Shown: positions 1-42,187 of the stretch, one piece after another
Position numbering within the stretch: position 1 is the first letter of the stretch
How the letters are laid out: every line of letters starts with the position of its first letter
Source of the DNA: Opitutales bacterium
Lineage (GTDB): Bacteria > Verrucomicrobiota > Verrucomicrobiia > Opitutales > PNEW01
Length of the DNA stretch: 64,000 nucleotides
Reading direction: 5' to 3'
Assembly (NCBI GenBank): GCA_965197745.1
Contig: CBDANS010000007.1
Location: forward strand, 1,052,306-1,116,305
Program-made: the position numbers and the translations under genes
Notes under the pieces: generated by a model
Databases searched by the model: none
Seen by the model: the letters and a program-made list of their open reading frames with translations, nothing else
Told to the model about the DNA's origin: nothing

Positions 1-278
1 CTAAGGAAATTAGCGAAACTGAAATATTGTTAAAAGATATAGAATCACTTAATCACCGGCAATATTCAATTATAAGCCATGCTTTACGTCATCCACGTCA
101 CAGATATACTATATCTAGTCATCGAAAAAGTCATAATGTTGCTTATGATACAGCAAGGCATGATCTTTTGAAGTTATCTAATTTAGGGTTTCTTAATCAG
201 AAAAAAATGGGTAAGAAAATATTATTTGATGTTAAAGATAATTTATTAGACGTCATCAGAGATACGTCATCAGAGTGA
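1..278 (+). CDS. Fic/DOC-family protein, C-terminal winged-helix part (5' end lies outside the window)
   Basis: The frame is open back to position 3. The C-terminal pattern HRQYSIISHAL...VAYDTARHDLLKLSNLGFLNQKKMGKK is typical of Fic protein C-termini. The stop codon TGA (276-278) coincides with the first bases of the IS3 terminus. Confidence 0.5.
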   Translation, partial: KEISETEILLKDIESLNHRQYSIISHALRHPRHRYTISSHRKSHNVAYDTARHDLLKLSNLGFLNQKKMGKKILFDVKDNLLDVIRDTSSE

Positions 279-884
279 TCGGACCCCGTTATTCGTACCA
301 GTTTAAGTGAGAAAGTTACCGGGTGTTAATGATTTTAGGATTGATGTGTTGGAGAGGTCTTGGCGAAGTGAGGGCGTAGCCCGAACGCGGCCAAGATCTG
401 AAAGGAATCAGACAAACTCTAGTGAGCTTCTAAAGCCTAAAGGACTGTGGAGATGTTCATAGTTATAAGTCTGACGCCATTGTTCGATTACTACTTGCGC
501 TTCAGTCACGCTAAGCAACACTTCACGATTTAAATATCCATCGCGTATGCAGTTATGAAGCGACTCGATGAAACTGTTTGTTATTCTCGATCTAGTTCGT
601 TGAAGTGTCGCTTAGCTCTGTAGCCAGGGACTGCCCGGATCGAAATATATCACCTTGATGTTTTGTCGGTCAACCACTGTTGCACTTGATGAGCGATGAA
701 TGGCTTCGCATGTCGTCGCTTCGCTCCTCGGAACACTGCCGTTGTCACTATGGATATAGCTGAGAGTTCACTCTCTTTCAATGGCCTCGCTATTGAACAG
801 AGAGAACATCGTTTGAGGTGGGCTGTCTAGCTACCCGGAGACGCAAACATCTACGTGTGTATTCATCGATTAGAGTCATCATCT

Positions 885-1202
885 TTAATGGACTGCCATT
901 ATCAGTTCGATCATGGACAAAGTCCCAGGACCAGACGTGATTGCGATCATTTGCTTTAGTGAGACACTCTGTTGAGACTCCTTGACGATGTCTACGTTTT
1001 TCGGTGGCTTAACCTGCAGACCCTCTGAACGTCGCACCGTATGAACAAACTTCCTGCTTGTTGTCCAGCCTTCCTTTACGAGCAAGGCACGGATACGCCG
1101 GTAACCGTAGCGGGGATGTTCCCAGGACAAGGGTACAATCCACTCGGCCAACCGCTGAGCTTCCTGCTGCCCTGCTTGGGCTGGTATCTGTAAGTTAAAC
1201 AA
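885..1202 (-). pseudogene. IS3 transposase OrfB, N-terminal fragment
   Basis: The motif HPRYGYRRIRALLVKEGWTTSRKFVHTVRRSEGLQVK is typical of the IS3 OrfB HTH region. The DDE part downstream is broken. Confidence 0.65.
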
Positions 1203-1291
1203 GCTGAAGCTGAGATAAGCACAAGCCCTCTAAAACGAGCACAGTCCTTTCTCAGCCGCATCTTTTACTACTCGCTCCTTCTGCTTTGGGC

Positions 1292-1558
1292 TCACCCCTT
1301 TTTTGACCGCGTTTCTTCCATTACCTGACTCTTGAGCATTTGATCAGCAAGCAACTTCTTCAGCGCGGTGTTTTCTTTTCCCAACTCCTTAAATCGCTTC
1401 GCATCGGCCAGTTCTAAATTGCCATACTTTTTACCCCAGCGATAGAAAGTCAGTTCACTTACGTTGTTGCTACGGCAGATTTCCTGAACCTTTTTACCGG
1501 TAACGGCTTGCCGCAGTATTGCGATGATCTGTTCTGTTGTGTATCTTTTTCTTTTCAT
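1292..1558 (-). CDS. IS3 transposase OrfA (HTH)
   Basis: Sequence MKRKRYTTEQIIAILRQ...ELTFYRWGKKYG...LKKLLADQ. The start was moved to the internal Met at 1558. Confidence 0.7.
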   Translation of the reverse strand: MKRKRYTTEQIIAILRQAVTGKKVQEICRSNNVSELTFYRWGKKYGNLELADAKRFKELGKENTALKKLLADQMLKSQVMEETRSKKG

Positions 1559-1699
1559 TAAGCTTATCCGTTTATCCCCATAACCTCTCTCTGTTAATGA
1601 TTCGATTTTTTGGGTCACTCCACCTACATGCACACCTTTTCCAACTGAGCAGTCGAGAATTGGAGGCTGAGAGGAGAGATTGCCAAGGCCGTCCGGCAA

Positions 1700-2096
1700 T
1701 TGTGCTACCGGATGCGGGGCTATGATCGGAAAGCAGAGAAGTATGGGGTTATATTCGTATTCAGGACACCACTTGGGAGGGAATCTCCTTTACTTTCGCT
1801 ACCGAAGGGCTGACAAACCTGGATGATTATGTGCTGAAAGCCTGCCTGGAAATCGCTGAGCCGCTGCTTGCGCGGTTTTTGCAGAAGGGACATAGAATTC
1901 GTGGTATCGGGCTACATACGATTGAAATGGATGCGACCAACCAGCTTGAACTCTTTTTTCGCGAAGACGAAAAGTTAGCGCGGATGTACTTCGCGGTGGA
2001 CAAATCAACAACCGCTTTGGCCTCGACACCATCATGCAGGCTTCCATGAAGTACGCCGTTAAGGGAAAAACTCATTTTCTGGAACGGAATGTTTAA
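1700..2096 (+). pseudogene. Y-family DNA polymerase (DinB-like) C-terminal remnant, frameshifted and 5'-truncated by IS3
   Basis: GIGLHTIEMDATNQLELFF...KLARMYFAVDK continues after a frameshift as INNRFGLDTIMQAS. This matches the little-finger/C-terminal pattern of DinB. Confidence 0.45.
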
Positions 2097-2391
2097 AGCA
2101 ATGATCGTTCTTTTTTACTTCGATTGATTATTGAACTGATCGAAAATGTGGCATGATGGTTTTATTTCGCCAGATCGATGCTCTTGTCAGTATTACCCTA
2201 TTTCTTCAGCTTGTCGTTATCTCTCCCACTGGTTTGTAAGAAACGGGTTCTCACGTTAAAAAGCAGCAACATAAAAAAGAGAGGGAGTTTAAGTATTTTT
2301 TGGTATTTAATAGGCATGAATAATTTCAACTATAGCGCTCGTCTGTAATTTGATAATGGTTAGGTTGGAACTCTAACCTAACCGACAAGTA

Positions 2392-4776
2392 ATGCTTCGA
2401 AAGCTCATATTTTTTGCGGTGACTGCTATAATGTTAAGCAGTTTCCAATTTCTTTACGCACATAATGTGTCTTTTCCTTTACCCAGTGATAAGATCAATG
2501 AATACCCTTTTAACATGGTGGGAAAAGTTTCCTCGAGAGATTTCGTTGGTTCTGGCACAGCAATATCACAAAAGGTTGTTCTCTCCGCAGCACATGTTTT
2601 TTTTGATATTGAGAATCTAGATTGGCATCCAAGCCCTTTTAGGTGGAACTTACGCCATTCTCCATCCGATCGAATTTTTGATATAAGTGCGCGATCTTAC
2701 AATCATTTTAGCGACTTTGCTTTAGCCACACGCCGTTTTCAACCTGATGATCCGGCTTTCAACTCATATGAACAATTTAATCGCGATGTCATTACTCTTA
2801 TATTTTATGAAGATGTAGCTAATGGAGGCCATGCAGGACGGGGTAGCAACCGAATCACCGATAACTCTGATAAAATGATCGTCGGATATCCTAACCTGAA
2901 CTACCCCGATTATGATCAGAGAAGAGACACAATGCATTCGACTAGTCTTGATGGGAGTCCTGCCAAATATGAACTGATAGACTACTATGACCGACAGGGT
3001 TCTATAAGTCGACTTTATGAAACTTACGATTTGTCTACAGGTCCAGGTAATAGTGGGGGTCCGGTATACGGGTTAATTAGATTTGCGAATGGTACTGTTG
3101 ATTGGGGTGTAGTGGGTATAACTGTTGGTGGCCGTACAGGCGAGTCTTCCGTGGCGGTAGGTATTGACCAAGCTATTTCTGATTTAATCAAAGAGGCGGA
3201 ATCCACTTTTGATACTATCTCATCCGACGACCATGGATATACTCGCAGCACAGCGACCACGGTAGAACTTAATCGCTCTATTGCGGGCAACTTAGATACA
3301 GTTGGTGATATTGATTATTTTCGTTTTGTAATAAAGAGCGATGGAACGATAAATGCATATACAACAGGTGATACCGATACCCTTGGAACATTACAGAATA
3401 ATTCAGGAAACGTTATTACGACAAAAGACGGTAGTGGTTCAGGGGAGAATTTTTTAATTACACGGGTACTCAATCCGGGAACATATTACATCGCCGTCAG
3501 CAATTTCTCTTTTGAAAAAACAGGTAGATATTCTTTTCGCGTTGATTTTACTGAGACCATTAAATTACCAGACTTAGCGGTTGATTTTATTAGCGTAGAC
3601 AGAAGGTCAGTAGTAGCAGGTGAATCGGTTCGTGTTGGTTTCAATAGAAGTAACACGGGGGATAAAAATTCTGGTATATTCGCTCATGGGATCTATTTAT
3701 CGGGGGATAAAATTATTACAACCAGAGATACACGATTGTTAAATTTGAAAAATATAAGTATGAATGTGGGTGCTTCAGGAAGAATCTCTTTTAAAGTAAT
3801 TATACCAACGAATACAATTCCGGGTATTTATTACCTAAGTTATATTCTCGACTCTGATATGAAGATTAAAGAAACCGATGAGACTAACAACACAGGTTAT
3901 GCTGAAATTACGGTATCGGAACCTATTTCAGACGATGATGGAGACTTAGTGCTTGGTGGCTTTGGTGATATAGCTGGAAAGGATATTCAGCACCCTAATG
4001 GAAACGTCTTTGACCAAATTTTGCTCACTGGACCATTCATAAAGCTCAAGGCGAAGCCAGGTCAGATCACGAGGGCATCGTTTATGGATGAAAACGAAGA
4101 CATTGTCCAGGTAGAGTTCTCAGGCAGCGGTACCTTTACCGTGACATTAGACCCGACCACTTTTTTACCTCCCGCTTTACCCCCACGCTATAACCAGCAG
4201 GTGGAGTACGTCACCGGCAAGCCCAGCGTGGTGATCGAAGGAGCAGACTCCTCGACCTTCTTCAGTATCTTCACGGTGGGATCGATCAACGCGGTGAACC
4301 AGACGTTGTTCCCCGAGGGACAGGTCTATGATGCGCAAGCGGATGTGACTCTGGTGGAGGTAATTAACTCCACGGGTACCGGAGGGATGCAGTTGTCGAA
4401 CACGGTGTTCAGTGGAAGCACGGGCAACGTCGGGGTGATTGCAAGAGTGGTGCCGATTGCAGTACGCTTAACAGTTGGTGATATCGATGCTGATGGCGAT
4501 GCAGTGCCGCACCTCTTGTTCGGAGAAGGTTCGTTCACGGTGCCATCTGGCAATCCCGGGTTGCGCATCACCGGTGGAGACTTGAAGCAAACAAACAGTG
4601 CTTCAATCGTGATCGCGGAGAGCAGATCGACAACTCCCGGGTTTGAGATCCTGATCTCTCAGAATAACTTCAAGTCCGATGGAATCCCTCAGCCCGCTCA
4701 AAGTATAGATGCTACCTTTGTAAACGAGGACGGAACTGTGATCCCCGTAACTGTGGATAATTTAACAATCGAATAA
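2392..4776 (+). CDS. Secreted multidomain trypsin-like (S1/V8-type) serine protease with PPC-like, CARDB-like and a shared 276-aa C-terminal domain
   Basis: Signal peptide present. His motif SAAHV and Ser motif GPGNSGGPVYG. DIDYFRF...GTYYIAVS (pre-peptidase C-terminal type). PDLAV...ETDETNNTG (CARDB-like). The C-terminus is about 80% identical to that of 60004..61980. Confidence 0.8.
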   Translation: MLRKLIFFAVTAIMLSSFQFLYAHNVSFPLPSDKINEYPFNMVGKVSSRDFVGSGTAISQKVVLSAAHVFFDIENLDWHPSPFRWNLRHSPSDRIFDISARSYNHFSDFALATRRFQPDDPAFNSYEQFNRDVITLIFYEDVANGGHAGRGSNRITDNSDKMIVGYPNLNYPDYDQRRDTMHSTSLDGSPAKYELIDYYDRQGSISRLYETYDLSTGPGNSGGPVYGLIRFANGTVDWGVVGITVGGRTGESSVAVGIDQAISDLIKEAESTFDTISSDDHGYTRSTATTVELNRSIAGNLDTVGDIDYFRFVIKSDGTINAYTTGDTDTLGTLQNNSGNVITTKDGSGSGENFLITRVLNPGTYYIAVSNFSFEKTGRYSFRVDFTETIKLPDLAVDFISVDRRSVVAGESVRVGFNRSNTGDKNSGIFAHGIYLSGDKIITTRDTRLLNLKNISMNVGASGRISFKVIIPTNTIPGIYYLSYILDSDMKIKETDETNNTGYAEITVSEPISDDDGDLVLGGFGDIAGKDIQHPNGNVFDQILLTGPFIKLKAKPGQITRASFMDENEDIVQVEFSGSGTFTVTLDPTTFLPPALPPRYNQQVEYVTGKPSVVIEGADSSTFFSIFTVGSINAVNQTLFPEGQVYDAQADVTLVEVINSTGTGGMQLSNTVFSGSTGNVGVIARVVPIAVRLTVGDIDADGDAVPHLLFGEGSFTVPSGNPGLRITGGDLKQTNSASIVIAESRSTTPGFEILISQNNFKSDGIPQPAQSIDATFVNEDGTVIPVTVDNLTIE

Positions 4777-5027
4777 GATCGGTATTAATTAACGTAATTC
4801 ATGGCTTTGTAAGGTCTTACCAGGTATTCGAAAATTCCTTCTGATTTCTTTGCTTTACTATTTTTAATCATCCCATTCCTTGATAGATTATATTCGAGTA
4901 TGGAAAGTCTTAGAATGGCTTGGGATCGCCTTGAATTAAAAACCGGTAGGACCCCTTTATCGCCCTAGCCTGTACTTTGCGTTACCCCGGCCGTTGCAGG
5001 TGTCTAGCTATTGATATTTATTCCCTC

Positions 5028-5267
5028 CTATAAATAGCTACTCTCACTTGCCATACGGGAGAGCCCAACATCGTCGCATAGTTCAAGCTGCGATTTGTCC
5101 CGGAAGGTAAAAGTATCTTCTTGATAGGTGATATTTTCGCGACAACTCTGCGCCTCCCTCCGGTTGTGTTTGTCGATGACGTCTTGTCTGGTGCCACGGT
5201 GTTGCCAGAGCAAGGACAAGCCAATCAAAGTAAAGACCAGAAGAAAGCAAATAAGAACGATAACCAT
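5028..5267 (-). CDS. Small hypothetical membrane-anchored protein
   Basis: 79-aa ORF with an N-terminal hydrophobic helix (VIVLICFLLVFTLIGLSLLW). No clear RBS. Confidence 0.25.
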   Translation of the reverse strand: MVIVLICFLLVFTLIGLSLLWQHRGTRQDVIDKHNRREAQSCRENITYQEDTFTFRDKSQLELCDDVGLSRMASESSYL

Positions 5268-6123
5268 GAGAGTAACTTTATACGTGGTTCTCTGGTTGTG
5301 ACTAGTTCAAAAATCTCATATCTTAACATTAGAAGCAAGACGCACGTCGTTTGGATAGGTCCTGGACAAATGCATTTTACAGTTTCTTATGACAGATTTC
5401 TATTTCGAGACAGGGACAGGGAAATCTCGAGCTTCCTGAATCTAAGAGCGGGACAGAGGGGGGCGGTTTTTTTTGCGTTAGGTTGACGCCGTCATGATGC
5501 CTTCAATATATAAATTTATAACTTTTCTTTTGTTTGTTGTTTTGCGCGCGCAAGTTGTAAAAACAGGACTTCAATCTTATCTGTAGACACACTTAAAAAA
5601 GAGAGGGAGGATCGACACGATTCTCTCTTATCAAGCTGTCCATTAATTAATGGATATTTTAGGTTGTCCGCAATGAAGACCAACCTGTGGACACACTAAA
5701 AAAGTGATCTATCGTTTCTGGGTTGCTTGAGCAGACCGTTATTGGCGGTAGTGTGCGCGGACCAAAAGGGGATACCCTAAAAGGAGATCTTAGAAGGAGA
5801 CCCGCACAATCGTTATTATGTCCAGTTGATTTGTAAATAATTGATATTCAACATATTAAATTTATACATAAAATTCCTAACGGTCTTAGAACGACGCTAA
5901 TTAAGGGGTAAGCCCCAGTTTAAAACCCTAATTAAGCCGGGGTTGACATACTATTGTTACACGCACTGCGCCCCATAATTCAGAGTATCCCTATCAAGAA
6001 AACGTTCGCCGTCTGACATCGCCGGTGTCCGCTAATTTGGGAATAAACCAATCTGGGAGCAAATCAGGTTACAGAGGGGCGGGGGGGTGCGATCGGAAGA
6101 CCGACCCTTAGTCCATATATCGA

Positions 6124-6500
6124 TTTACTCACCGGAAAATATTTTTACAAAGGGCAAAGTTTGGGAGCAAAATAATTTAAAAAGACCCTGCTTAAATTGG
6201 CTTTTAAATGTACGATTCCCCTCCGTTATGAAACCCCCTTTCTCGAGGCTCTCAGACCCCTTCACGGGCAAATCAAATCAAGCTTCCAGGCTTCAAAAAA
6301 TCCCCTCGGACACAAACCCATTCAAGCGAGCGTACGAAAGCACGCATTATCTTTTAGAATATTTCCCCGCAGTAAAATCTGTTCCTTAAAGATATTGTCT
6401 GTGTCTGCTTGGGACAGCTCATTTCAAATATTAAAATGTCCATTGATAAAAAACATGTAGGTAACCAAATTAAATCTTGGTTGCTTTCGAGGTTTTATTA
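6124..6500 (+). ncRNA. Candidate non-coding transcription unit U1 (promoter-like TTTACT-N16-TACAAA to hairpin plus U-tract)
   Basis: Paralogous to U2. It ends in GGTAACCAA-N8-TTGGTTGC followed by TTTCGAGGTTTTATTATTA. The G-T pair in the stem only works on the + strand. ORFs here are not conserved in U2. Confidence 0.35.
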
Positions 6501-6543
6501 TTACGGTTTTAATCAGCAGATCGACCGGGGGTCCCCCAATTAA

Positions 6544-6945
6544 TTTACTCACCGTAAAATATATTTACAAAGAGGGATGTAAGGGACCCAAAAAATAAAG
6601 CCACAAGCATTAAATTGGCTCTAAAAGGTACGATCACCCTTCGTCATGATATACATTATGCCTTAAGATACAACCGCCCTTTCTCGAGGTATTCAGCCCT
6701 CTTGAAGAGCAAATCAAATTAAGCTTAGAAGCTTTAAATATTCCCCCAGCCTTGAAAACATTCAATCGAGCGTACGAAAGCACACATTTTTATAACTTAA
6801 ACTATATTCCCCAGACAATGTCACCGTACTAAAATAGTATAGAAGAGAATTTGCCTACATTGCTCGTTTATTTATAAATGCATTAACAAAAAAACATAAC
6901 GGGTAACCAAATTAAACTTTGGTTACCCCAATGTTCTTTAATATC
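6544..6945 (+). ncRNA. Candidate non-coding transcription unit U2
   Basis: Starts with the same motif TTTACTCACCGTAAAATATATTTACAAAG. Shares the internal blocks CCCTTTCTCGAGG and GAGCGTACGAAAGCAC. Ends in the hairpin GGGTAACCAA-N8-TTGGTTACCC. No ORF of 60 aa or more. Confidence 0.35.
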
Positions 6946-7085
6946 TATGTTCTTATCAACCTTGTTCTTCGTACAAGTCTGCACCCTGTGCTGGTTTTAT
7001 CACAATAAAGATGTCCAGGGTGCATGTATAAGATCGATAAGGTGTCCAGTATGCATATTTATTAAACCTGTGCATAAAACTATTT

Positions 7086-7241
7086 CTGATCGATCAGGAT
7101 TTGCATTTTGGCATCATTTTCGTGATTTTTCGTAATCCTGATCGATCAGAACTTGTGTTTTTGTGTCATTTTCGCGATTTTTCGTAATCCTGATCGATCA
7201 GAACTTGTGTTTTAGCATTATTTTTGTGATTTAGCCTTTTT
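7086..7241. repeat. 52-bp tandem repeats, each carrying the 12-bp palindrome CTGATCGATCAG (iteron-like)
   Basis: Palindromes at 7086-7097, 7138-7149 and 7190-7201, spaced exactly 52 bp. Degenerate ATTTTCGYGATTTTTCG units continue to about 7330. Confidence 0.8.
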
Positions 7242-7520
7242 CGTTTTAGCAAGACTTACGTTTCAGGGCCATTTTGTGATTTTTCATGATTCGCTTTTGC
7301 GAGATTTGCATTTTTCCCCACGCCCGCACCTCGTAAAGAGGTTAATGATGCGGCGATAGCTACAGAGCCGACGCTACTCCAGGCAAACTTACTAGCATGT
7401 TTTTATTGATGACCTAAGTAATGGTTTTACTTAAGTAGAAGATGAACCCCGACCTGAATGACCCGGGGAATCCAAAAGAGTGGAAATAGTATTTTTTTTG
7501 CATGGATCATCTTTTTAAAA

Positions 7521-7668
7521 CGACCGGTAAATATATTTACAACTCAGACCCTTATCCCTCAGACAATATTTTCGTACTTAAATACCATACAAAAGAATTT
7601 GTCCGCAATGCCCGTTAATAAAAAAGCTGATGCTTGAGGGAAGGGGGTGTTACCAAGCACCCCCTTTT
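7521..7668 (+). ncRNA. Candidate short unit U3 (promoter-like start fused to the 3' part of the U2-type unit)
   Basis: CCGGTAAATATATTTACAAC start, then a 3' part homologous to U2 (CCCTCAGACAATATTTTCGTACTTAAATA). Ends in a strong terminator. Confidence 0.3.
7642..7668 (+). terminator. Intrinsic terminator hairpin
   Basis: GGGGGTG-TTACCAAG-CACCCCC followed by TTTTT. It abuts the stop of the convergent gene 7668..8273. Confidence 0.7.
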
Positions 7669-8273
7669 TATCTTGTTTTTGGAAAGTATTCCTTTCCAGC
7701 CAACCATAAATAAGTATCAATCTCTCTAAGCGAAAAACCGGTTAGCTTATAAAACATCTGAAATTTCTTAATAACATCTGAAAATATCTTGTAAGTCTTT
7801 AATTCATATCTTTTAAACTCAGCAAATTGATACATATTTCTAAAGTGCCATAGCATTTCACTTACGTGATGATCATAAATCGAATAAACATTTGGTTTAT
7901 GATAACTGTAGTATTTTGTCGCGAAAGAATAATTATTCCGGGATTTACCACCTATCTCGACTGAAGCAATTTCGTTTATTAAATCTCCTTTCCCGCTGTT
8001 CAAGTCTTCATCTATATCTGAAACATAGATATGGTTCGATACTGAATAAATATCAAATATATTGGTTCCGGAGAGTCGGTTTAATGCTGTAGTCTTCAAT
8101 AGAACAAATCTTAAATCGTTGTTTTCTGGACATAGTTTAGTAAATAAGACTTTCAATGCATCTTCTTGATCATTGTATTGTTTCATATATCTCCATTTCT
8201 TGAGATAAGATTTAACAATTCTTTTACTTGGTTTCTCAACTGATCTTTTCATTGTTCTCCTGGTCGTGACCAT
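7668..8273 (-). CDS. Hypothetical protein (201 aa)
   Basis: Clean AT-rich ORF with no recognisable catalytic motif. Confidence 0.55.
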   Translation of the reverse strand: MVTTRRTMKRSVEKPSKRIVKSYLKKWRYMKQYNDQEDALKVLFTKLCPENNDLRFVLLKTTALNRLSGTNIFDIYSVSNHIYVSDIDEDLNSGKGDLINEIASVEIGGKSRNNYSFATKYYSYHKPNVYSIYDHHVSEMLWHFRNMYQFAEFKRYELKTYKIFSDVIKKFQMFYKLTGFSLREIDTYLWLAGKEYFPKTR

Positions 8274-8306
8274 CCAAACCTAAATGACTATGGTCGGGTG
8301 ATCGGG

Positions 8307-8881
8307 TTACGTAAACTGGTCCACCGAGAGAGTTAGTCTGGAGAGGTTAATGTTGAAGTTAAGTTGGTAGAGGAAGTCAAGGCTTGGGCGCAATGAGGGC
8401 GTAGCCCGAATGGAGCACGAGCCTTGTTTATAGGCGTCCAAAGCGAAGCGTCTCGGTGTAATGTTGCCGAGACTGCGGTGTGGGCGAACGTTGTTATAAA
8501 GCCAGCGCCAGTCTTCGATAACGACACGCGCTTCGGTCAATGTCCATAATTGCTCGCGATTTAAGCACTCCTCGCGAAACCGGGCGTGGAAGGATTCAAT
8601 GTATCCGTTGTTATTCTCGCTATCGCTCGTTGAGGTGTCGCTTCGCTCGGTAGCCAGGGACTTCCCGGTTCGATGTAGATGGTTCTGATATTCATGGCAG
8701 CAAGCCAGGTCCGCAACTGCGTTTCTATTAAATGGCTTCGCATGTCGTCGCTTCGCTCCTCGGAACCGAACCGTTGTCGCTGCGGATATATGGTGGAGGT
8801 CCCTATTGCTTGATCAGCTTCTGCATGACAGCCCGTGCGCTCTGTGCATTGATAAGACGATCGACAGGGATGAACAGGCAC
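8307..8881 (-). pseudogene. IS3 OrfB (DDE) remnants
   Basis: Fragments TEARVVIEDWRWLYNNVRPHRSLG and IYIEPGSPW lie in different frames. Confidence 0.75.
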
Positions 8882-9260
8882 TCGCGCGTATAGGTCTTCG
8901 CTTCACTTGAGTGTCGTCGCTTTCAGCTCCTCGGTACATCGAGTATCGTCAGCATCTTGAGACGGCCACCGCGGATCGTCTTATCGTGGATAAAATCCCA
9001 GCTGAAAACGTGGTCAGGATATTCGGCGGCAGTCAGCAAGCCGGTGGAGACACCCCGTCGCCGGCGTTTCGGCCTTGCGCGGGGCAATGGCCAAACCTAA
9101 CTCGCGACGCAAGCGTTGCACCAAGCGTTTACCTACCTCCCATCTTTCGTCCTTCAACAACTTCGTGATCCTGGTATAGCCCCCAGCTGGCATATTGCCG
9201 GGATAACCGCCGTATCGCCGCTTTCAGCTTCATTAACCACACGCATCAGATTGCCTCGTC

Positions 9261-9659
9261 TCATAGACATACGTGGGACGGTGGAGGAGAAAATATCGGC
9301 ACGCTCCACGCATCGAACATCGGCCCCGAGCTGCATATCTTTCCGCCACCTGAGGTTTGTGCCCAGGGCTTACTACCGAGCGTATGCGACATCTCCCATT
9401 TTTTTTCGAGGGTCTCCTGCAGGATCTCTATCCCTAGCAGCTTGTCCGCCAGCATCCGCTTTAACCGCGTGTTTTCCTTCTCCAGTTCCTTCATCCGCTT
9501 GGCCTGATTCACATCAATCATCACAAACTCCCGTTTCCAACGGTGGAAGGTCTGTTCGCTGAGGTTATTCTCACGGCACACTTCCTGGGTCGACTTGCCT
9601 CTGTCTGCTTGCCGCAATATCCGTATCTTCTCTTCGGTTGTATATCTTTTGCCTTTCAT
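9261..9659 (-). CDS. IS3 OrfA (HTH), copy 2
   Basis: MKGKRYTTEEKIRILRQADRGKSTQEVCRENNLSEQTFHRWKREF...LKRMLADKLLGIEILQETLEKK. Confidence 0.7.
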   Translation of the reverse strand: MKGKRYTTEEKIRILRQADRGKSTQEVCRENNLSEQTFHRWKREFVMIDVNQAKRMKELEKENTRLKRMLADKLLGIEILQETLEKKWEMSHTLGSKPWAQTSGGGKICSSGPMFDAWSVPIFSPPPSHVCL

Positions 9660-10031
9660 TGTCTGAGTCCTTTCCAGGTTACCCAGAATAACTTTTCAAG
9701 GGGCTCAGTTTCCGTGGTCTCGACCAACTACTACCTTCTTGAAATAGAAGCAAAGCCTCGTGGATATGAGAATACTGTAGTCCATGCTTATTCGATTCCA
9801 AAACAACAGCTTTATGAAGTTTATCAATCGCTAACAAAGCATTTTCAGCCAAAATAGTTATATCACATTCTTCTTTAGTTAATGAGGGTTTATCACAAGT
9901 TTATATTAGTGTTTCCATAGTTGTATCTTTATATAAGTCAGTGTTTATTATTATTTTTTAGTTAAGATCTAATTCTAGGAAATTCCGTTAATAAATTCAT
10001 AAACACATCATTAAGTGTCTCATGTGTCTTT

Positions 10032-10613
10032 TTAATTATGACTTATGTTTTCGATGTCATCTTCCACTTTCTCATCGAACTTAATTAAAGACTTTTTCCA
10101 GTCAAATAACGCTTCCCATTGGCCAGTCGAGGGATTTTCTCTTTTCCAGTTATTTTTCTCTTGTAGTTCCCAAAATGAGTCAGCAGCTCTTTCGTCAATA
10201 CCCATAGCATCGCAAATATCGATGAACTCATCGTAATTTTTCGGAAGAGGACGGGGTGAAGGAAGGGCTCTTTGCCTCTCCTGCGCTGCGGGGGTCAATA
10301 AGGTGTAAGTATTATATACTCTCCTGCCTCGACCTGATTCTATTTTCAGCAACGTTATAGCGCTTAATATTTTAAGCACAGCGGAGGTTTTACTTTTCGA
10401 TAAACCCGCGCGGTAAGCGATCAATCCGATCGAAGCAGAGAAGGGACGAAATTGATCTCCATGATCATTAGCAATCCAGTTCAGGGCACTGTAAACAGAA
10501 ATTGTAAATGAAGCGTTGGTCCCCAGTACTTCCTGTAAAATAATTATATGCGCATCCTTATAATTTCGGTAATAGGAGAGCTCTTTACTTTGACCTGCTG
10601 GATTTTCAGGCAT
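10032..10613 (-). CDS. Winged-helix DNA-binding protein, possible replication/primosome organiser of the integrated element
   Basis: The N-terminal half looks like an HTH_36-type wHTH (LSKSKTSAVLKILSAITLLKIESGRG). The Trp-rich C-terminus is DnaD-like. It overlaps the upstream HTH gene by 8 nt. Family assignment is from memory. Confidence 0.45.
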   Translation of the reverse strand: MPENPAGQSKELSYYRNYKDAHIIILQEVLGTNASFTISVYSALNWIANDHGDQFRPFSASIGLIAYRAGLSKSKTSAVLKILSAITLLKIESGRGRRVYNTYTLLTPAAQERQRALPSPRPLPKNYDEFIDICDAMGIDERAADSFWELQEKNNWKRENPSTGQWEALFDWKKSLIKFDEKVEDDIENISHN

Positions 10614-10875
10614 GTCTCTTCCTGTGCTTGCGGGCTGCTGTCTGCTGATTCTCCAACTTTTCCAAAGTCGTTAAGAGCGTCTCCCGGCGGTATAACTTTC
10701 TGCCTCCTATGCGAATCGGTTTAAGCAGTCCGCGCCTGTCGTAATTTCGTACTGTGCGAATGGAGACCCCGAGTATTACTGCGGTCTCTGACTCCCTCAG
10801 CAACAGGGGCGGGTCGATACGAACTGAATTGAGTGTAGATGGGGTATCCATGGTGCCTTGTAATTTAAGGCACAC
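10606..10875 (-). CDS. Excisionase/AlpA-type (MerR-like HTH_17) DNA-binding protein
   Basis: LRESETAVILGVSIRTVRNYDRRGLLKPIRIGGRKLYRRETL. The likely true start is Met at 10851. Confidence 0.7.
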   Translation of the reverse strand: MCLKLQGTMDTPSTLNSVRIDPPLLLRESETAVILGVSIRTVRNYDRRGLLKPIRIGGRKLYRRETLLTTLEKLENQQTAARKHRKRHA

Positions 10876-10941
10876 ACTATACCATCACATTTCTCGATTT
10901 TTCCTGTAATCGCATACAGTAACTTTAGAAGATACTGTATG

Positions 10942-11253
10942 TTAATGGAGAACAGGTGAATTCCCTCTTTCAAGAGCGATTTTAATTATTTCTGTGACTG
11001 AAAAAACGTTTGGATAAACACGTTGTATCAACCCATTTTGATCGGGACAATCTTCGTTGCTATTATCTATCGCATCGGCTTGTCCCTCAATACGGGAATA
11101 GTATCGCCTTTTTCGAAGAACCGGGTTAAGGTTTTTACCAAATCCCCGCTCAACAATCGCTTTCTCAATTGCATCAGCCCGTGGTAGAGATTCAGATGTG
11201 CGAAAGTGCTCAACAGCCAGAAAGGATTTCCACTGCGCCTCTGTCCCAAACAA
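10942..11253 (-). CDS. Hypothetical protein (103 aa)
   Basis: The ORF starts where the DUF6499-like homology to module 2 ends. No homologue is recognised. Confidence 0.3.
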   Translation of the reverse strand: MFGTEAQWKSFLAVEHFRTSESLPRADAIEKAIVERGFGKNLNPVLRKRRYYSRIEGQADAIDNSNEDCPDQNGLIQRVYPNVFSVTEIIKIALERGNSPVLH

Positions 11254-11941
11254 CTGGACTTTTGTGGCGGGGAATCCTCTTCCAGTTTTTCGGTAATAAG
11301 CTTGATGATTTTATCACGGGAACTTTTGTCTCTCATAGAGACACGAGGGACGGCAAATAAACGATAAGTATTAACTGTCCAGTGCCAATACAGTGCCGTA
11401 TCCGAAAAACAGCTCTCAAGAGCTGCTTGCGAATGGTCTTCGTGGGGCAGCGCAGGGGCTATTTCTATATCAGGAGGTATTGCATCTTCGTTGGGATATA
11501 ATCCTGAAGGGACGATCTCGCAAATATCCGCCGTATAGTCCGCCCAATAATCTCTGTACGCCTTCTGAAATCCTCGCGGGGTATTGAGCCAGGTTGAATC
11601 AAGCTTTAAAGGGGCACGCCCTTTTTTCTTATCCTCTTTGTATTCTTCTAAAAACTCAACCTGGTCCTCTTCTATCCTCGGACCTACTACCTGACGATGT
11701 CCTTCTTTGGGCCCAAGCCCACGTGGGATTATTACTGGTTCATGCATCCAGTTCCAGGCCGCTCCCGCAAAATAATTACGGTCATCTTGAACGAACCTGA
11801 ATTTTTCCCATCTTCCCTCTTTGCCCTGAAGACTATGCTAAGCTCCTTTGTTTTTTCTTGAAACGCTTTATTGCGTCGAAGTAATTCCCATATCTTCGCC
11901 GGTATGCCGTCCTCACAGGGATTGTAGATTGATAAGCTCAT
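11067..11941 (-). pseudogene. DUF6499-like protein (WELLRRN motif), frameshifted copy; homology to the intact copy ends near 11240
   Basis: The gene is split into 11732..11941 and 11067..11747. Relative to 33766..34476 there are 2 extra nt near 11850, which breaks the frame. The N-terminal motif is IPAKIWELLRRNKAF. Confidence 0.6.
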
Positions 11942-12735
11942 GCACGCTAACGGTCTAATGGTTTAAATGTGACCACCCTTGGAATTCCATCCTTCACTCC
12001 TTGAAATGGACACAGCCCAGCGCTTCAATTGCTGGAGATGATCCCTGTTTATTTGCAATAACGTTAGCCCTCACAACTTCGCGAACGCAAGGTGCAATTT
12101 GAGATTTACCCGGTATCGTTCTCCCCGCCATGTTTGAAATTCGACTGGAAGCACGCTGGCTAATGTATCTCCCGCGACTCTCCCACTTCCTGCACCGACA
12201 GATCCTCTGGGGTGTTTCTATCCCTGTCCCTTAGCTGTCATGAGCGCTGTCCCGTGCGTGAGTTTCCCTGCCCCCGAACTGCGATGAAAAATTTCCTTGC
12301 CCACGAGGTTCCGTCCTTCCGCTCTAACTTATGCACTGGCGCAACCTTATGGCTGATTTCCCGCTCGCCCGTATCCAACACTACGACGCACGTAACAGGC
12401 TGCTTGCCATCGCGGGAATGTTTTGCTCTCTCCTTCACGATGAAAAATTATGACACAAAATCGGCGCGGTGCAAACGCAATATTTTTCAAACTGACCCAC
12501 TAACGGTAACCGTTAATCTGGCCAACCCCCTCGCTGGTGAGGCTGAAGATGTCACCCAAAGTAATCATGGAAAACTTTAAAACCCCTCTCAAATCTATAA
12601 GCGAAAATAGGATCGATAAGTTGGACTGCTGTTCGGCAATCAGGGCACAGATAGCGGTTGAAGGTTTGGAATCGAGTTGTTTTACAGCTAAATTCGCTGC
12701 TTAAGGGTATCATGAACCCGGATGGCAATACCCCA
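11942..12735. other. Conserved non-coding spacer of integrase module 1
   Basis: Long identical blocks with 34477-35177, but two non-triplet indels. Contains the palindrome TAACGGTAACCGTTA. Flanked by a 24-nt direct repeat. Confidence 0.6.
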
Positions 12736-14022
12736 TCAATCTAATGGTTTAAATGCGACAACCGATTGCTCTGCATTTGCCGGGAGAATTGAGAAATATT
12801 TTTCCCCCTCTGTTCTGCTAGCAAGACTCCGGTAATGATCAAACAGTACCTGGTCACTCGAACGATGGCCCAGCATCGCTGCTGTCTTGCTTGAATCACT
12901 GGTCAGGGCATAATAGTAGCTGCCGAAGCTGTGGCGCATCGCATTGCTGTAGTTTCCCCCCCAATGGGGAAAGCCCGCTTGTTTGGTTAACTTAGCAAAG
13001 TTTATGTATGAATTTGCGGGTGCAACTTTACCCTTTTTATTATGACATAGCTGCAACCATGCCACACAATTGTCCATAAGATCCATGACTCTTAACTGGC
13101 GCTTTTTAGCTATCTGTGGGCCAACCGTCAGTAACTTGCGCTCCAGATCAATAACCGACCAGTCAAGCCGGTAAATCTCAGTGCTCCTTAACCCTGCGAA
13201 CAGCCCTAGTGCCACCAATGGGAGCAGCCCCATATCTTCATCTGTCTTTGCCGCATGCAAAACCAAATCTTCTGCTTGAGTGACTTTGAGAATGACAGGG
13301 GGCTTCCAGTCTATTTTTGGGATTGGAATTTTCTTCACGGGGTTATCGACCCGAAATCCCTTGTTCACCGCATAGTTAAAAAAGCTGCTTAAGCATAAGC
13401 GGTAGTTTATAATGCTTCTCACAGAGAGATCGGTAAAGTTATTGAGCCACTCCTCTATTTCCGTTTGAGAAATCTCCTTGACCACTCGGCTCCCAAAGTT
13501 TCTAGAGAAGATTCCCAGCCGGGAGCGGATATCATTTATGGAGCGCGAGCGCAGATTCCGGTTTTCTTTTTCCTCAATCAATGTTGCCGTTAATTCCAGA
13601 ACCGTAATATCACCGGCAGGGGGATTCAAATGCAGCTTGGCAAACTCCGCTGCCTGCAAGAGGGTAATGTCGAAACCTTCCAGTATTTCGAATGCGTTGA
13701 AAGCGTCCTTGGACTGGTACCCGGTCAGGTTATAATGATGCTGCCCGTGTTGAAGCAATTGTTCGTGTTGTTCTTTTGCCCAGGCAAAAGCGACCTCTTT
13801 ATCCTTGAACTGTCTTCTCATTCGCTTGCCCGCGAACTTCGCGGGAATCAAAACCTGGTAGGAAAATCCGTAATCATCGCCAGCGGTTCGATTGATAACT
13901 TCCCTGATTGTGATAGCACTTTTTTTAGGGTGCTCCCAGCTATTAAGGGGACTCGATTTTTTACGTTTTCCTTTAGTTGCCTCCATCAAGCAAACTAATG
14001 CCTCAATCAGGTTTACTTGCAA
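12736..14022 (-). CDS. Tyrosine recombinase/integrase (module 1)
   Basis: 428 aa with catalytic-region motifs AGLRSTEI, MRHSFGSYY, LGHRSS and FDHYRS. About 88% identical to 35178..36464. Confidence 0.9.
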   Translation of the reverse strand: MQVNLIEALVCLMEATKGKRKKSSPLNSWEHPKKSAITIREVINRTAGDDYGFSYQVLIPAKFAGKRMRRQFKDKEVAFAWAKEQHEQLLQHGQHHYNLTGYQSKDAFNAFEILEGFDITLLQAAEFAKLHLNPPAGDITVLELTATLIEEKENRNLRSRSINDIRSRLGIFSRNFGSRVVKEISQTEIEEWLNNFTDLSVRSIINYRLCLSSFFNYAVNKGFRVDNPVKKIPIPKIDWKPPVILKVTQAEDLVLHAAKTDEDMGLLPLVALGLFAGLRSTEIYRLDWSVIDLERKLLTVGPQIAKKRQLRVMDLMDNCVAWLQLCHNKKGKVAPANSYINFAKLTKQAGFPHWGGNYSNAMRHSFGSYYYALTSDSSKTAAMLGHRSSDQVLFDHYRSLASRTEGEKYFSILPANAEQSVVAFKPLD

Positions 14023-14079
14023 GCTTTATTGACAATAATAATACAGGAACATTACAAGTCATTGATATATTTATATATA

Positions 14080-15107
14080 AACGATTCGATGATCCGTTCT
14101 GCCAAGGGCTTGCTGGTTCGATATAGAGGGTATTGATTTTCATCGCAGTTAGCCAGGCTCTCAATTCACTTCCAATAAATGGCTTCGCATGTCGTCGCTT
14201 CGCTCCTCGGAACCGATCCATTGTCGCTGCGAATATATTGTGGCGGCCCATGACGGTCGAGCAGTTTTTGCATGACCCCGCGCACCTTCTGCGCATTGAT
14301 ATGGCGATCGACATGGATCACCCGACACTCGCGGGTGTACTCGTCGAGGACGGTCAGCATTTTGAGATTCCCACCGCGAGCCGTCTTATCGTGGATAAAA
14401 TCCCAGGTCCAAACAGGGTCGGGATGTTCGGCCTTGGTCGGCAGCCCGGTGGAGATACCCCGGCGCCGACCTCTTGGCTTGCGTGGGGGGATCGCCAGAC
14501 CCAGTTCACGTCGCAGACCTTGCACGAGACGTTTACCCACCTGCCAGCCTTCGTCCTTCAACAGCTTCGTGATCTTCGGATAGCCCCACCTCGCCTATTG
14601 CCGTGATAACCGCCTTACTGCCGCCTTCAGTTTCGTTAGCCAGGCATCCGGATACTTCGCCCGATACGCATAGGTGGAGCGGTGCAGGTGAAAGTATCGG
14701 CACGCTCCACGCATCGAACACTGGCCCCGGGCCACAAGTCTCTCTGCCACTTGCCGCTTGTGCCCAGGGCTTACCGTTTTTTTTCGAGGGTCTCCTGCAC
14801 AATCTCTATCCCCAGCAGCTTGTCCGCCAGCATCCGCTTTAACCGCGCGTTCTCCTTCAAAGAGTTCCTTCATCCGCTTGGCCTGGTTGACATCGATCAT
14901 TCCAAACTCACCCTTCCAGTGGAGGAAGCTCAGTTCGCTTAGGTTGTTCTCACGGCATCCTCTTCCTGGGTCGATTTGCCTCTGTCTGCTTGCCGCAATA
15001 TACGTATCTTCTCTTCGGTTGTGTATCTTTTATCTTTCATTGTCTAAGTCCTTTTTAGGTGGCCCAGACCAACTTTTCAAGTGTCACAGTTTCCGTGGTC
15101 ACGACCA
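14080..15107 (-). mobile_element. IS3-family element, copy 3, truncated by about 420 bp at its orfB end
   Basis: Homology to copy 4 begins abruptly at AACGATTCGATG (14080), next to the integrase upstream region. The intact end is ...CCGTGGTCACGACCA at 15107. Confidence 0.8.
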
Positions 15108-15372
15108 ATAATATCCCTAGAACTAATATTATATGCATACTTAGAGGTAATATATTACCGATTACTTCTTTCACTTCCATTGTAATTTTCCTTTCTGTTA
15201 TTTGTTTATCTGAATTGTGACTTTTGTATATAATTCCCTAATTTAGCTTAATTTCTCGTTCTCATTGGATCATGGTCCAAACTCAACAAATTGGTTCAAC
15301 CGGACTTGTTTGACGAATGGAAGCAAGCTTCACGTTTGGTCTGGCTGAAATCGAAAGCGGATATAGGCGGAC

Positions 15373-18758: not shown

Positions 18759-19192
18759 CCGTTCCTCCGCTTAATTAAGGTTAGAAGGTTCTTGCCGCTC
18801 TCCCGCCGATAGTGCACCTCATCCATCAGGGTGCGCACCAGATGGATGCCGAGCCCGCCCACGGGGCGGTCTTCGAGAGACGCGTTGATATCGGGTGGGG
18901 GAGTATCGGTCAGTGGATTGAACGCACGGGCGTCGTCGGTGATCTCAACGGTGATTGTATCCATGTCCGAGACGATCTGGATTTCGACCTCGTGGGGGCC
19001 ATCGTCGCCGTGCCCATGATTCACGATGTTGATGCCTATCTCCTCGAACACGAGCTTAACCTGAAATTCGAGCTCGGGGGACCAGCTCTCCGTCCGCGCG
19101 AACTCTTCGATCGATTCGTCGATTCGTCGAAGCTCGTCGAGCGTCGTTTCCATGCGAAGTGATAACTTGGCGCTCATATGTCCCCTCCGCAT
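18755..19192 (-). CDS. Anti-sigma regulatory factor, Ser/Thr kinase (RsbW/SpoIIAB-like)
   Basis: GHKL ATPase core EIGINIVNHGH...GGLGIHLVRTLMDEV. About 140 aa. Confidence 0.75.
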   Translation of the reverse strand: MRRGHMSAKLSLRMETTLDELRRIDESIEEFARTESWSPELEFQVKLVFEEIGINIVNHGHGDDGPHEVEIQIVSDMDTITVEITDDARAFNPLTDTPPPDINASLEDRPVGGLGIHLVRTLMDEVHYRRESGKNLLTLIKRRNG

Positions 19193-42113: not shown

Positions 42114-42187
42114 GCGGACGTAGTATAGAGGTAATACGTGAGCTTCCCAAGCTTGAATCGAGGGTTCGATTCCCTCCGTCCGCACCA
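42114..42187 (+). tRNA. tRNA-Gly (anticodon CCC), CCA encoded
   Basis: Manual cloverleaf: acceptor GCGGACG/CGTCCGC, D stem GTAT/ATAC, anticodon loop TTCCCAA, T arm GAGGG-TTCGATT-CCCTC. Confidence 0.9.

What the first reader, a model, noticed from the sequence alone, without database searches (positions are those of the whole stretch)
6124..7668. Tandem paralogous promoter-to-terminator units without conserved ORFs
Seen:
- Two units about 400 nt long start 420 nt apart (6124-6500 and 6544-6945).
- Both begin with TTTACTCACCG(G/T)AAAATAT(T/A)TTTACAAAG.
- They share the internal blocks CCCTTTCTCGAGG, AAATCAAAT(C/T)AAGCTT and GAGCGTACGAAAGCAC.
- Both end in AACCAA-N8-TTGGTT hairpins. The first has a U-tract and a G-T pair that is valid only on the + strand.
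- A third, shortened unit (7521-7668) joins the start motif to the 3' part and ends in a strong terminator.
- The ORFs in unit 1 have no counterpart in unit 2.
- Upstream lie two copies of CTGTRGACACAC(T)TAAAAAAG (5581 and 5685) and the palindromes CCATTAATTAATGG (about 5640-5653) and TTGCGCGCGCAA (5542-5553).

Inference: these may be a family of sRNA genes, or regulatory or incompatibility RNAs of a plasmid-like integrated element. Decayed duplicated genes remain possible.
Basis: partly seen in the sequence, partly recalled or inferred. Interest (0 to 1): 0.6.

Follow-up and report, generated by a model that had tools for sequence, protein, structure and literature searches.

The report
Tandem non-coding repeats on integrated island
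Two roughly 420-base tandem repeats and a short third copy are real, do not code for protein, and belong to a 1.5 kb non-coding block shared by a few small self-replicating integrated islands of Opitutales-type bacteria, but nothing computed here shows that they make small RNAs.

Summary
Units 6124-6500 and 6544-6945 are true paralogues (72-83% identical by block), and 7521-7668 is a shortened third copy.

They are part of a larger non-coding block, 5431-6945. It consists of a G/T-rich edge, a 385-nt "segment A" with two 21-nt direct repeats, a G-run, and the units.

I found the block in five other loci: one Opitutales MAG and four metagenome contigs, at 76-86% nucleotide identity. Where enough flank is held (window, L108, L111) it lies at the far end of a small island with a tyrosine integrase and an excisionase-like protein. 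L111 adds a replication initiator, a DnaC-like loader and iteron-like repeats; L112 carries homologues of both replication genes.

The units are not protein-coding. Orthologues differ by frame-breaking indels, substitutions show no codon periodicity, and no protein family matches.

Evidence for a structured RNA is also absent. There is no Rfam hit, no covariation, no excess of G-U over A-C mismatches, and unit folds are no better than shuffles.

My best guess is island-borne non-coding transcription units (confidence about 0.35). A cis-acting DNA module beside the origin is nearly as likely.

The family is rare and lineage-restricted. Interest is modest.

The parts
5431..5478 (.). Left edge of the conserved block: CTTCCTGAATCT...GGGGGGCGGTTTTTTTTGCG, a G-run followed by a T-run with no stem
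   Evidence: Conserved in all six loci, while the sequence further left differs.
5479..5580 (.). Clade-specific spacer. In the window it holds TTGACG-N18-TATATA and the palindrome TTGCGCGCGCAA
   Evidence: There are three different versions among the six loci. The promoter-like reading is my own inspection.
5581..5965 (+). Segment A: a 385-nt conserved non-coding stretch with 21-nt direct repeats CTGTRGACACAC(T)TAAAAAAG at 5581 and 5685
   Evidence: Mean column identity is 88% over the aligned 5560-6125 stretch in six loci, with long invariant runs inside segment A. Repeats. Fold z = -3.8 on the + strand and +0.4 on the - strand in the window. In homologues the values are only -2.5/-1.3 and -1.6/-1.3. 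No covariation.
5966..6065 (.). Second clade-specific spacer
   Evidence: Poorly alignable between the two clades (few identical columns) but nearly identical within the second clade. This points to mosaic replacement.
6066..6094 (.). G-run ACAGAGGGGCGGGGGGGTGCGATC. It repeats the motif at 5453-5466
   Evidence: family D13. Conserved in all loci.
6124..6500 (+). Unit 1. Start motif at 6124-6152. Conserved core at 6190-6345, including CCCTTTCTCGAGGCTCTCAGACCCCTT and the GAAA-loop hairpin GCGTACGAAAGCACGC at 6330-6345. Hairpin at 6461-6484
   Evidence: Orthologues are present in L110, L045 and L108.
6544..6945 (+). Unit 2, a paralogue of unit 1 with a different 3' third. Hairpin at 6901-6928
7081..7313 (.). 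Three 52-nt tandem repeats, each with the palindrome CTGATCGATCAG, followed by two degenerate ~50-nt copies. Iteron-like; a putative origin
   Evidence: An analogous 22-nt array in L111 lies next to the DnaC-like loader gene.
7521..7668 (+). Unit 3, shortened. It joins the palindromic start motif GTAAATATATTTAC, CTCAGACCCTT and the type-2 3' part, then ends in a strong terminator at 7638-7669
   Evidence: Fold z = -2.3.
7668..8273 (-). Cargo ORF of 201 aa with no family match, convergent with the units
10032..10613 (-). 193-aa ORF with a weak match to O-like replication initiators
   Evidence: phrog_391, E = 0.0096.
10606..10875 (-). HTH_17/MerR-type excisionase-like gene
   Evidence: It is 45% identical to the L111 excisionase-like protein.
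12736..14022 (-). Tyrosine integrase of the island
   Evidence: It is 44% identical to the L111 integrase.

Best explanation
The units are tandem duplicates of a non-coding module. The module belongs to a family of small integrative, self-replicating islands in Opitutales-type Verrucomicrobiota. These islands carry a tyrosine integrase, an excisionase-like protein, a replication initiator with or without a DnaC-like loader, and iterons.

My preferred mechanism is inferred, not shown. Each unit would be a rightward (+ strand) transcription unit. It would start just after the conserved, partly palindromic motif ATTTACTCACCGGAAAATATATTTACAA, which would act as promoter and operator. It would end at the AACCAA/TTGGTT hairpin or, for unit 3, at a canonical terminator. 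The products would be non-coding RNAs of about 350-400 nt, or about 125 nt for unit 3. These RNAs would run convergent to the island's leftward genes. In truncated copies they would run antisense into those genes. They would therefore act as counter-transcripts that modulate expression or replication next to the origin.

Shown: the repeats are real, they are non-coding, they are conserved across loci, and the island context is as described.
Inferred: that they are transcribed, on which strand, and any regulatory role.
For: - The repeats are real and far above chance.
- The block occurs in five other loci at 76-86% nucleotide identity. Meanwhile the island backbone proteins are only 31-45% identical and no similarity was found between the replication genes. 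The block is therefore a retained or exchanged module.
- It is not coding. Orthologues that are 87% identical differ by many 1-2 nt indels. Substitutions are flat over codon positions. The only protein-database relatives are spurious ORFs from the same loci.
- The start motif is kept in every copy that retains its 5' end, including four truncated ones: L110 u2, L045 u2, L108 u2 and window u3.
- Unit 3 has classic sRNA-gene anatomy: motif, a body of about 100 nt, then a GC-rich stem with a U-tail.
- Three short hairpins, including one with a GAAA loop, are 90% paired in seven copies.
- All neighbouring genes are on the opposite strand.
Against: - No Rfam family matches, even at E <= 10.
- RNAalifold covariation terms are zero or unfavourable: +6.3, +0.1, +4.7 and +0.35.
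- The hairpins do no better than shuffles (142 of 500).
- G-U-type mismatches do not exceed A-C-type in Watson-Crick stems: 24 vs 15, 9 vs 14, 10 vs 14 and 31 vs 23. The strand is therefore unresolved.
- Unit folds are not better than shuffles: z = -0.9 on the + strand and +0.35 on the - strand.
- No good sigma-70 promoter is present, and the best -10 candidates lack a matching -35 (and inspection).
- The hairpins of units 1 and 2 have T-runs 6-9 nt away on both strands, so they are weak, bidirectional terminators at best.
- Rate heterogeneity along the units is only marginal (P = 0.017).
- No single intact unit survives in L111 or L112.
Confidence: 0.35

Rival explanations
1. The block is a cis-acting DNA module of the island: an origin-accessory, partition, packaging or transfer region. 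Segment A and the units would be arrays of protein-binding sites read as double-stranded DNA. Transcription would be irrelevant.
For: - It lies directly beside iteron-like repeats and, in L111, beside the replication genes.
- Segment A holds two 21-bp direct repeats 104-105 bp apart, about 10 helical turns.
- The start motif is a near-perfect palindrome (GTAAATATATTTAC in unit 3).
- 6-bp palindromes are enriched in the block: 42 against 27.5 +/- 5.
- Conservation is at the sequence level, with no covariation and no strand bias.
Against: - 1.5 kb with 420-bp tandem duplicates is large for known cis sites.
- The 21-mer and the start motif do not recur near the integrase or elsewhere in the 20-kb L111 locus.
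- The block is shared by islands with apparently unrelated replication proteins and integrases only 31-44% identical. That fits poorly with sites recognised by those proteins.
- No similar DNA was found in phage, plasmid or viral collections, so a borrowed helper cos, pac or oriT site was not detected.
Confidence: 0.3
2. The units are relics of a duplicated protein-coding gene of about 140 aa on the + strand. It is now frameshifted, or appears so because of homopolymer indel errors in low-coverage long-read assemblies.
For: - The + strand is depleted in stop triplets and has longer open stretches than shuffles. L108 unit 1 is open for 143 codons (0 of 300 shuffles reach that). The window and L045 copies reach 100-102 codons (P about 0.03). 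The - strand never shows this.
- Several inter-orthologue indels lie in A or T runs.
- L110 and L112 are 9x and 6x assemblies.
Against: - Substitutions are uniform over codon positions for orthologues and paralogues, for example 16/18/24, 19/22/20 and 47/41/42.
- In the stretch where P0002 and P0001 share a frame I counted 25 of 38 residues identical; by my own rough estimate that is about what random substitution would give.
- phmmer of the 143-aa ORF against 1.84 billion representatives finds only 4 short ORFs: three from the homologous loci, and one (P0005, locus L109) that I judge a false positive because nhmmer finds no block sequence in L109. No Pfam hit was found for the window ORFs 6087-6389 and 6197-6460; P0001 itself was not scanned.
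- The ORF would begin inside the G-run and read through the start motif and the terminal hairpin.
Confidence: 0.1
3. The units are functionless passenger DNA. A non-coding stretch was duplicated by slippage or unequal crossing-over. It hitch-hikes on a recently spreading island module, and its conservation only reflects recent common ancestry.
For: - Only six loci are known, all closely related.
- Unit 2 is truncated at a different point in every lineage.
- Within the second clade the 'variable' spacer is as conserved as segment A.
- Evidence for site-specific constraint is marginal.
Against: - The block is far better conserved than the surrounding island genes and is combined with different backbones and cargo.
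- Segment A, the G-run and at least one start motif plus core are retained in all six loci.
Confidence: 0.2

Closest known systems
Long direct repeats of type I toxin-antitoxin loci (E. coli ldr/rdl LDR-A to -D, ibs/sib); from my own knowledge
   Same: Tandem paralogous units of about 300-500 nt, unannotated, each running from promoter to terminator. They are often found on or near mobile DNA.
   Different: Those units encode a conserved small hydrophobic toxin peptide and an overlapping antisense RNA. Here no small ORF is conserved in position, length or hydrophobicity on either strand.
Phage-inducible chromosomal islands (SaPI/PICI) and P4-type satellites, including P4's RNA-based immunity (CI RNA with seqA/seqB/seqC repeats); from my own knowledge
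   Same: A small integrated element with int, xis, a replication initiator and an adjacent iteron origin. Accessory DNA lies at the far end. In P4 a non-coding region with repeated sequences makes a regulatory RNA.
   Different: No packaging, capsid-redirecting or repressor genes were recognised. No helper phage or cos/pac similarity was found. The units are much longer than the P4 CI RNA, and no complementary target repeats were found.
Plasmid copy-control counter-transcripts (ColE1 RNA I/RNA II, R1 CopA) and the non-coding par locus of pSC101; from my own knowledge
   Same: Non-coding, conserved sequence next to a replication origin that acts as RNA or as cis DNA.
   Different: Those RNAs have well-defined stem-loops that overlap the rep leader or primer. 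Here the units do not overlap the rep gene, show no conserved structure, and co-occur with apparently unrelated rep genes.
Multi-site transposon ends (Mu, Tn7, Tn5053); from my own knowledge
   Same: Segment A starts abruptly with C-TGT... and has a second copy of the 21-mer about 105 bp inside, in direct orientation.
   Different: No inverted copy lies anywhere in the 64-kb window or the 20-kb L111 locus. Conserved sequence resumes further upstream at 5431-5478, and no cognate transposase is present.

Membership tests
Any Rfam 15 RNA family | Covariance-model match at or above the gathering score | tested here: not met
   The only hit in the window is tRNA-Gly at 42114. Nothing credible appears at E <= 10 in 4700-7800. 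The five homologous loci give no hits.
Structured non-coding RNA (generic) | Helices supported by compensatory changes, and a fold more stable than shuffles | tested here: not met
   Covariation terms are >= 0. Hairpins reach 89.8% paired against 89.1% in shuffles. Unit z-scores are -0.9 and +0.35. Segment A has z = -3.8 in the window only, not in L108 or L111. Power is low, with only 6-11 closely related copies.
Bacterial sRNA gene (promoter plus intrinsic terminator) | Sigma-70-type promoter at the 5' end | tested here: inconclusive
   The scan finds fewer promoter-like sites than shuffles (7 against 11). It finds only TTTACA-N18-CAAAAT in unit 1, and this is not well kept in orthologues on inspection.
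Bacterial sRNA gene (promoter plus intrinsic terminator) | GC-rich stem followed directly by a U-tract | tested here: inconclusive
   Met for unit 3 (7638-7669). The unit 2 hairpin is flagged on both strands. The unit 1 hairpin is not flagged.
Type I toxin-antitoxin long direct repeats | Conserved small hydrophobic toxin ORF in every unit | tested here: not met
   ORF clustering over seven copies on both strands gives only peptides of variable length (9-24 aa, MRAFVRS...; 12-82 aa, MQTPFLEAL...) with no membrane-like segment.
Type I toxin-antitoxin long direct repeats | Overlapping antisense RNA | not testable with these tools
   This needs transcript mapping.
Protein-coding gene or recent pseudogene | Reading frame conserved among orthologues | tested here: not met
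   Unit 1 of L108 and L045, which are 87% identical, differ by about six 1-2 nt indels.
Protein-coding gene or recent pseudogene | Excess of third-position substitutions, and homologues in protein databases | tested here: not met
   Codon-position counts are flat. The only database relatives are spurious ORFs from the same loci.
Protein-coding gene or recent pseudogene | Open frames longer than chance | tested here: met
   This holds on the + strand only, and P ranges from below 0.003 (0 of 300 shuffles) to 0.36 depending on the copy. It remains unexplained.
Integron cassette array (attC sites) | Short (57-141 nt) imperfect inverted repeats at uniform cassette boundaries, next to an IntI-type integrase | tested here: not met
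   The units are about 420 nt long. The junctions with cargo genes differ in every lineage.
Lambda-type attP/attL arm sites | The same arm-type repeat occurs at both ends of the integrated element | tested here: not met
   The 21-mer occurs only twice, both inside segment A, in L111 and in the window, allowing up to 3 mismatches. No flanking direct repeats were found.
Integrative replicative island (PICI-like organisation) | Integrase, excisionase, replication initiator (with or without helicase loader) and an iteron origin in one block | tested here: met
   L111 has all of them. The window has integrase, HTH_17, a weak O-like protein and 52-nt repeats.
Integrative replicative island (PICI-like organisation) | Helper-phage dependence: packaging-interference genes, or a cos/pac site shared with a phage | tested here: not met
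   No PHROG structural or packaging hits. No DNA similarity in phage or viral collections.
Type III toxin-antitoxin (for the 52-nt array) | Tandem repeats immediately upstream of a ToxN-like gene on the same strand | tested here: not met
   The neighbouring 201-aa gene is on the opposite strand and has no PADLOC or Pfam hit.

The most novel reading that the evidence does not exclude
Segment A and the units would encode a previously undescribed family of long (about 0.4 kb), largely unstructured regulatory RNAs carried by small integrative replicons of Opitutales. They would act as counter-transcripts or immunity RNAs that control replication or expression of the island. The module would be swapped between islands with different integrases and replication proteins.
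Probability: 0.2. Interest if true: 0.55.

Novelty: new member of a known kind. Interest (0 to 1): 0.3.

Why it matters
If the units are transcribed regulators, they would be the first RNA-based control module described for mobile elements of Verrucomicrobiota, a phylum with almost no characterised sRNAs. They would also be an example of a non-coding module exchanged between islands with different backbones.

If they are cis DNA or passengers, the finding is ordinary. Its main value is then as a marker for a small, rare family of integrative replicons.

Either way, gene callers occasionally produce spurious ORFs here, up to 143 aa, and these should not be annotated as proteins.

Tried and rejected
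DNA searches that found nothing:
- Plasmid and phage collections in distant mode gave no match.
- Six pattern scans of viral contigs gave only chance hits.
- A metagenome scan with a gapped pattern gave 0 hits. A 17-mer scan gave 23 chance hits.
- A genome scan with the 16-mer gave 81 stretches, of which only L045 was a true homologue.

Route that worked:
- I queried the protein databases with spurious ORFs from the units. This yielded loci L108, L110, L111 and L112.
- L109 (P0005) is a false positive.
- A repeat search with P0002 and the cluster look-ups added nothing.

Hypotheses considered and rejected:
- Type I toxin ORFs.
- Integron-like cassettes and attP arm sites: the breakpoints differ and the repeats are one-sided.
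- A Tn7/Mu-like transposon end: there is no inverted partner.
- A borrowed helper-phage cos or oriT site: no similar DNA was found.
- A DGR or retron: I saw no reverse-transcriptase gene among the ORFs scanned nearby.
- A type III toxin-antitoxin for the 52-nt array.
- Defence-system membership of the cargo genes.

Other attempts:
- The G-U versus A-C test for strand gave no bias.
- The rate-heterogeneity test was first confounded by truncated copies and was then marginal.
- A literature search returned nothing relevant.
- Exact look-ups of the two window proteins tried (201-aa ORF and CARDB protease) failed.
Full report
OBSERVATION. Window 4777-7667 is a 2.9-kb stretch without credible genes. 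It lies between a CARDB/trypsin-like protease gene (2392-4776, +) and a 201-aa ORF (7668-8273, -).
- The 29-nt start motif occurs exactly twice in 64 kb, and the 16-mer GAGCGTACGAAAGCAC also occurs twice. Chance expects about 0 for each.
- Repeat families D2-D8 align 6092-6482 with 6512-6924 at 72-91% identity and 418-442 nt spacing.
- The third unit (7521-7668) keeps the start motif, a CTCAGACCCTT remnant and the 3' third of the unit (nhmmer E = 4e-4). It ends in a canonical terminator.

HOMOLOGUES.
- Rfam gives nothing in the region, even at E <= 10.
- Plasmid, phage and viral collections give nothing.
- The genome scan found one true relative: an Opitutales MAG, locus L045, 76% identical over 1178 nt.
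- Because gene callers sometimes call spurious ORFs in such DNA, I searched the protein databases with the window's 100-aa ORF and then with the hit P0001. This led to four more loci: L108, L110, L111 and L112.
- Identities to the window are 78% (L108), 86% (L110, which is syntenic and includes the protease gene), 79% (L111) and 77% (L112).
- All five protein clusters are singletons, so the family is rare.
- nhmmer profiles find no further copy in the window.

ANATOMY OF THE CONSERVED BLOCK.
- A G-run/T-run edge at 5431-5478.
- A clade-specific spacer.
- Segment A (5581-5965). Mean column identity is 88% over the aligned 5560-6125 stretch in six loci, with long invariant runs inside segment A. 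It begins exactly at the first 21-mer.
- A second clade-specific spacer.
- A conserved G-run at 6066-6094.
- Then the units.

Unit 1 is intact in four loci. Unit 2 is complete only in the window and is cut at a different point elsewhere:
- after the start motif in L110;
- after CTCAGACCCCTT in L045 and L108.

In L111 and L112 it is unit 1 that is cut, after AAATCAAATCA. A dCache gene on the - strand follows, and then a 5'-truncated unit 2.

The breakpoints therefore do not define a recombination core.

CONTEXT. Where enough flank is held (window, L108, L111), the block lies at the end of a small island, and the island's genes all point towards it.
- L111 has a tyrosine integrase, an HTH_17 excisionase, a replication initiator (phrog_270, E = 8e-26), a DnaC-like loader (phrog_50, E = 2e-33), a 22-nt x 2.3 tandem array, and then the units.
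- L112 carries homologues of the L111 initiator and loader.
- The window has the integrase (12736-14022), an HTH_17/MerR protein (10606-10875), a weak O-like protein (10032-10613), an IS3 remnant, and three 52-nt repeats with CTGATCGATCAG palindromes (7081-7236) lying between units 2 and 3.
- The 'plasmid-like integrated element' guess is therefore supported.
- The backbone proteins are only 31-45% identical between loci, and no similarity was found between the replication proteins. The block, in contrast, is 77-86% identical at the nucleotide level, so it behaves as a retained or exchanged module.
- In the opposite direction, the adjoining protease gene is 99-100% identical between the window and L110, while the block is only 85-95% identical. 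These regions are mosaic.

CODING?
- Orthologues that are 87% identical differ by about six 1-2 nt indels within unit 1.
- Substitutions are flat over codon positions in the frame of the 143-aa ORF P0001, for example 16/18/24, 19/22/20 and 47/41/42.
- phmmer of P0001 against 1.84 billion representatives returns only short ORFs: three from the homologous loci, and one that I judge a false positive.
- No small ORF is conserved on either strand.
- The units are therefore not coding.
- One oddity remains. The + strand, and only the + strand, is poor in stop triplets and has longer open stretches than shuffles. Low-coverage long-read assemblies could also add homopolymer indels, so I keep a 0.1 rival.

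RNA?
- Unit folds are no better than shuffles on either strand.
- Segment A gives z = -3.8 (+) against +0.4 (-) in the window. In L111 it is only -2.5/-1.3 and in L108 -1.6/-1.3.
- RNAalifold covariation terms are never favourable.
- Three short hairpins (CCC/GGG, AAGCU/AGCUU, and GCGUAC-GAAA-GCACGC) are 90% paired, but shuffled controls give the same figure.
- Among Watson-Crick stems defined from single sequences, G-U-type departures do not outnumber A-C-type departures.
- The promoter scan finds nothing convincing.
- Only unit 3 looks like a textbook sRNA gene.
- Rate heterogeneity along seven full copies is marginal (P = 0.017).

INTERPRETATION. Established: a real, tandemly duplicated, non-coding module that is specific to a small family of integrative replicons in Opitutales-type genomes.

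Not established: its function.

I rank the readings as follows:
- (a) + strand non-coding transcription units acting as counter-transcripts next to the origin, 0.35. Reasons: retention of the start motif in every copy that keeps its 5' end, the anatomy of unit 3, convergent orientation, and module conservation.
- (b) A cis-acting DNA module, 0.30. Reasons: adjacency to the iterons, 21-bp repeats 10 turns apart, a palindromic motif, palindrome enrichment, and purely sequence-level conservation.
- (c) Passenger DNA, 0.20.
- (d) A relic gene, 0.10.

Membership was tested and not met for type I toxin-antitoxin repeats, integron cassettes, attP arms, transposon ends and type III toxin-antitoxin systems.

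VERDICT. As a kind of thing this is not new. It is a new, rare sequence family. Interest is 0.3.

Noticed in passing
window 7081-7313: Three 52-nt tandem repeats, each with the palindrome CTGATCGATCAG, plus two degenerate ~50-nt copies. They look like iterons or a centromere-like site. L111 has a comparable 22-nt x 2.3 array at 12020-12068, beside its DnaC-like loader gene.
   Followed up: partly
window 8299-9727, 14003-15114, 43657-45000: Three copies or remnants of one IS3-family element, 75-79% identical to L045 3654-4974. The copy at 8299-9727 is decayed and sits inside the island.
   Followed up: partly
window 35178-36464 (and tRNA-Gly(CCC) at 42114-42187): A second tyrosine integrase of the same family (44% identical to the L111 integrase). 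No copy of the non-coding block lies near it.
   Followed up: partly
window 2392-4776 versus L110 1177-3633: The CARDB/trypsin-like protease gene is 99-100% identical to the one in L110, while the adjoining non-coding block is only 85-95% identical. This is a sharp mosaic boundary at about 4450-4750. L111 has a fragment of the same gene at the same side of the block.
   Followed up: partly
window 5028-5267 (- strand): A 79-aa ORF with an N-terminal hydrophobic helix. Its C-terminal part (…DTFTFRDKSQLEL…) is recognisable in L111 at 9166-9302. It lies just left of the block.
   Followed up: no
units, + strand (window 6087-6500; L108 9369-9800): There is a deficit of stop triplets and there are unusually long open frames on the + strand only, including a 143-codon ORF in L108. 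No other coding signature is present.
   Followed up: yes
window 5453-5466 and 6071-6084: The G-rich motif ACAGAGGGG(G)GCGG flanks segment A on both sides. The first copy is followed by T8 with no stem.
   Followed up: no
window 14000-20000 versus 1-14000: G+C rises from about 40-47% in the island and IS region to 56-60% in the neighbouring sensor-kinase and response-regulator genes. This is consistent with the left part of the window being foreign DNA.
   Followed up: no
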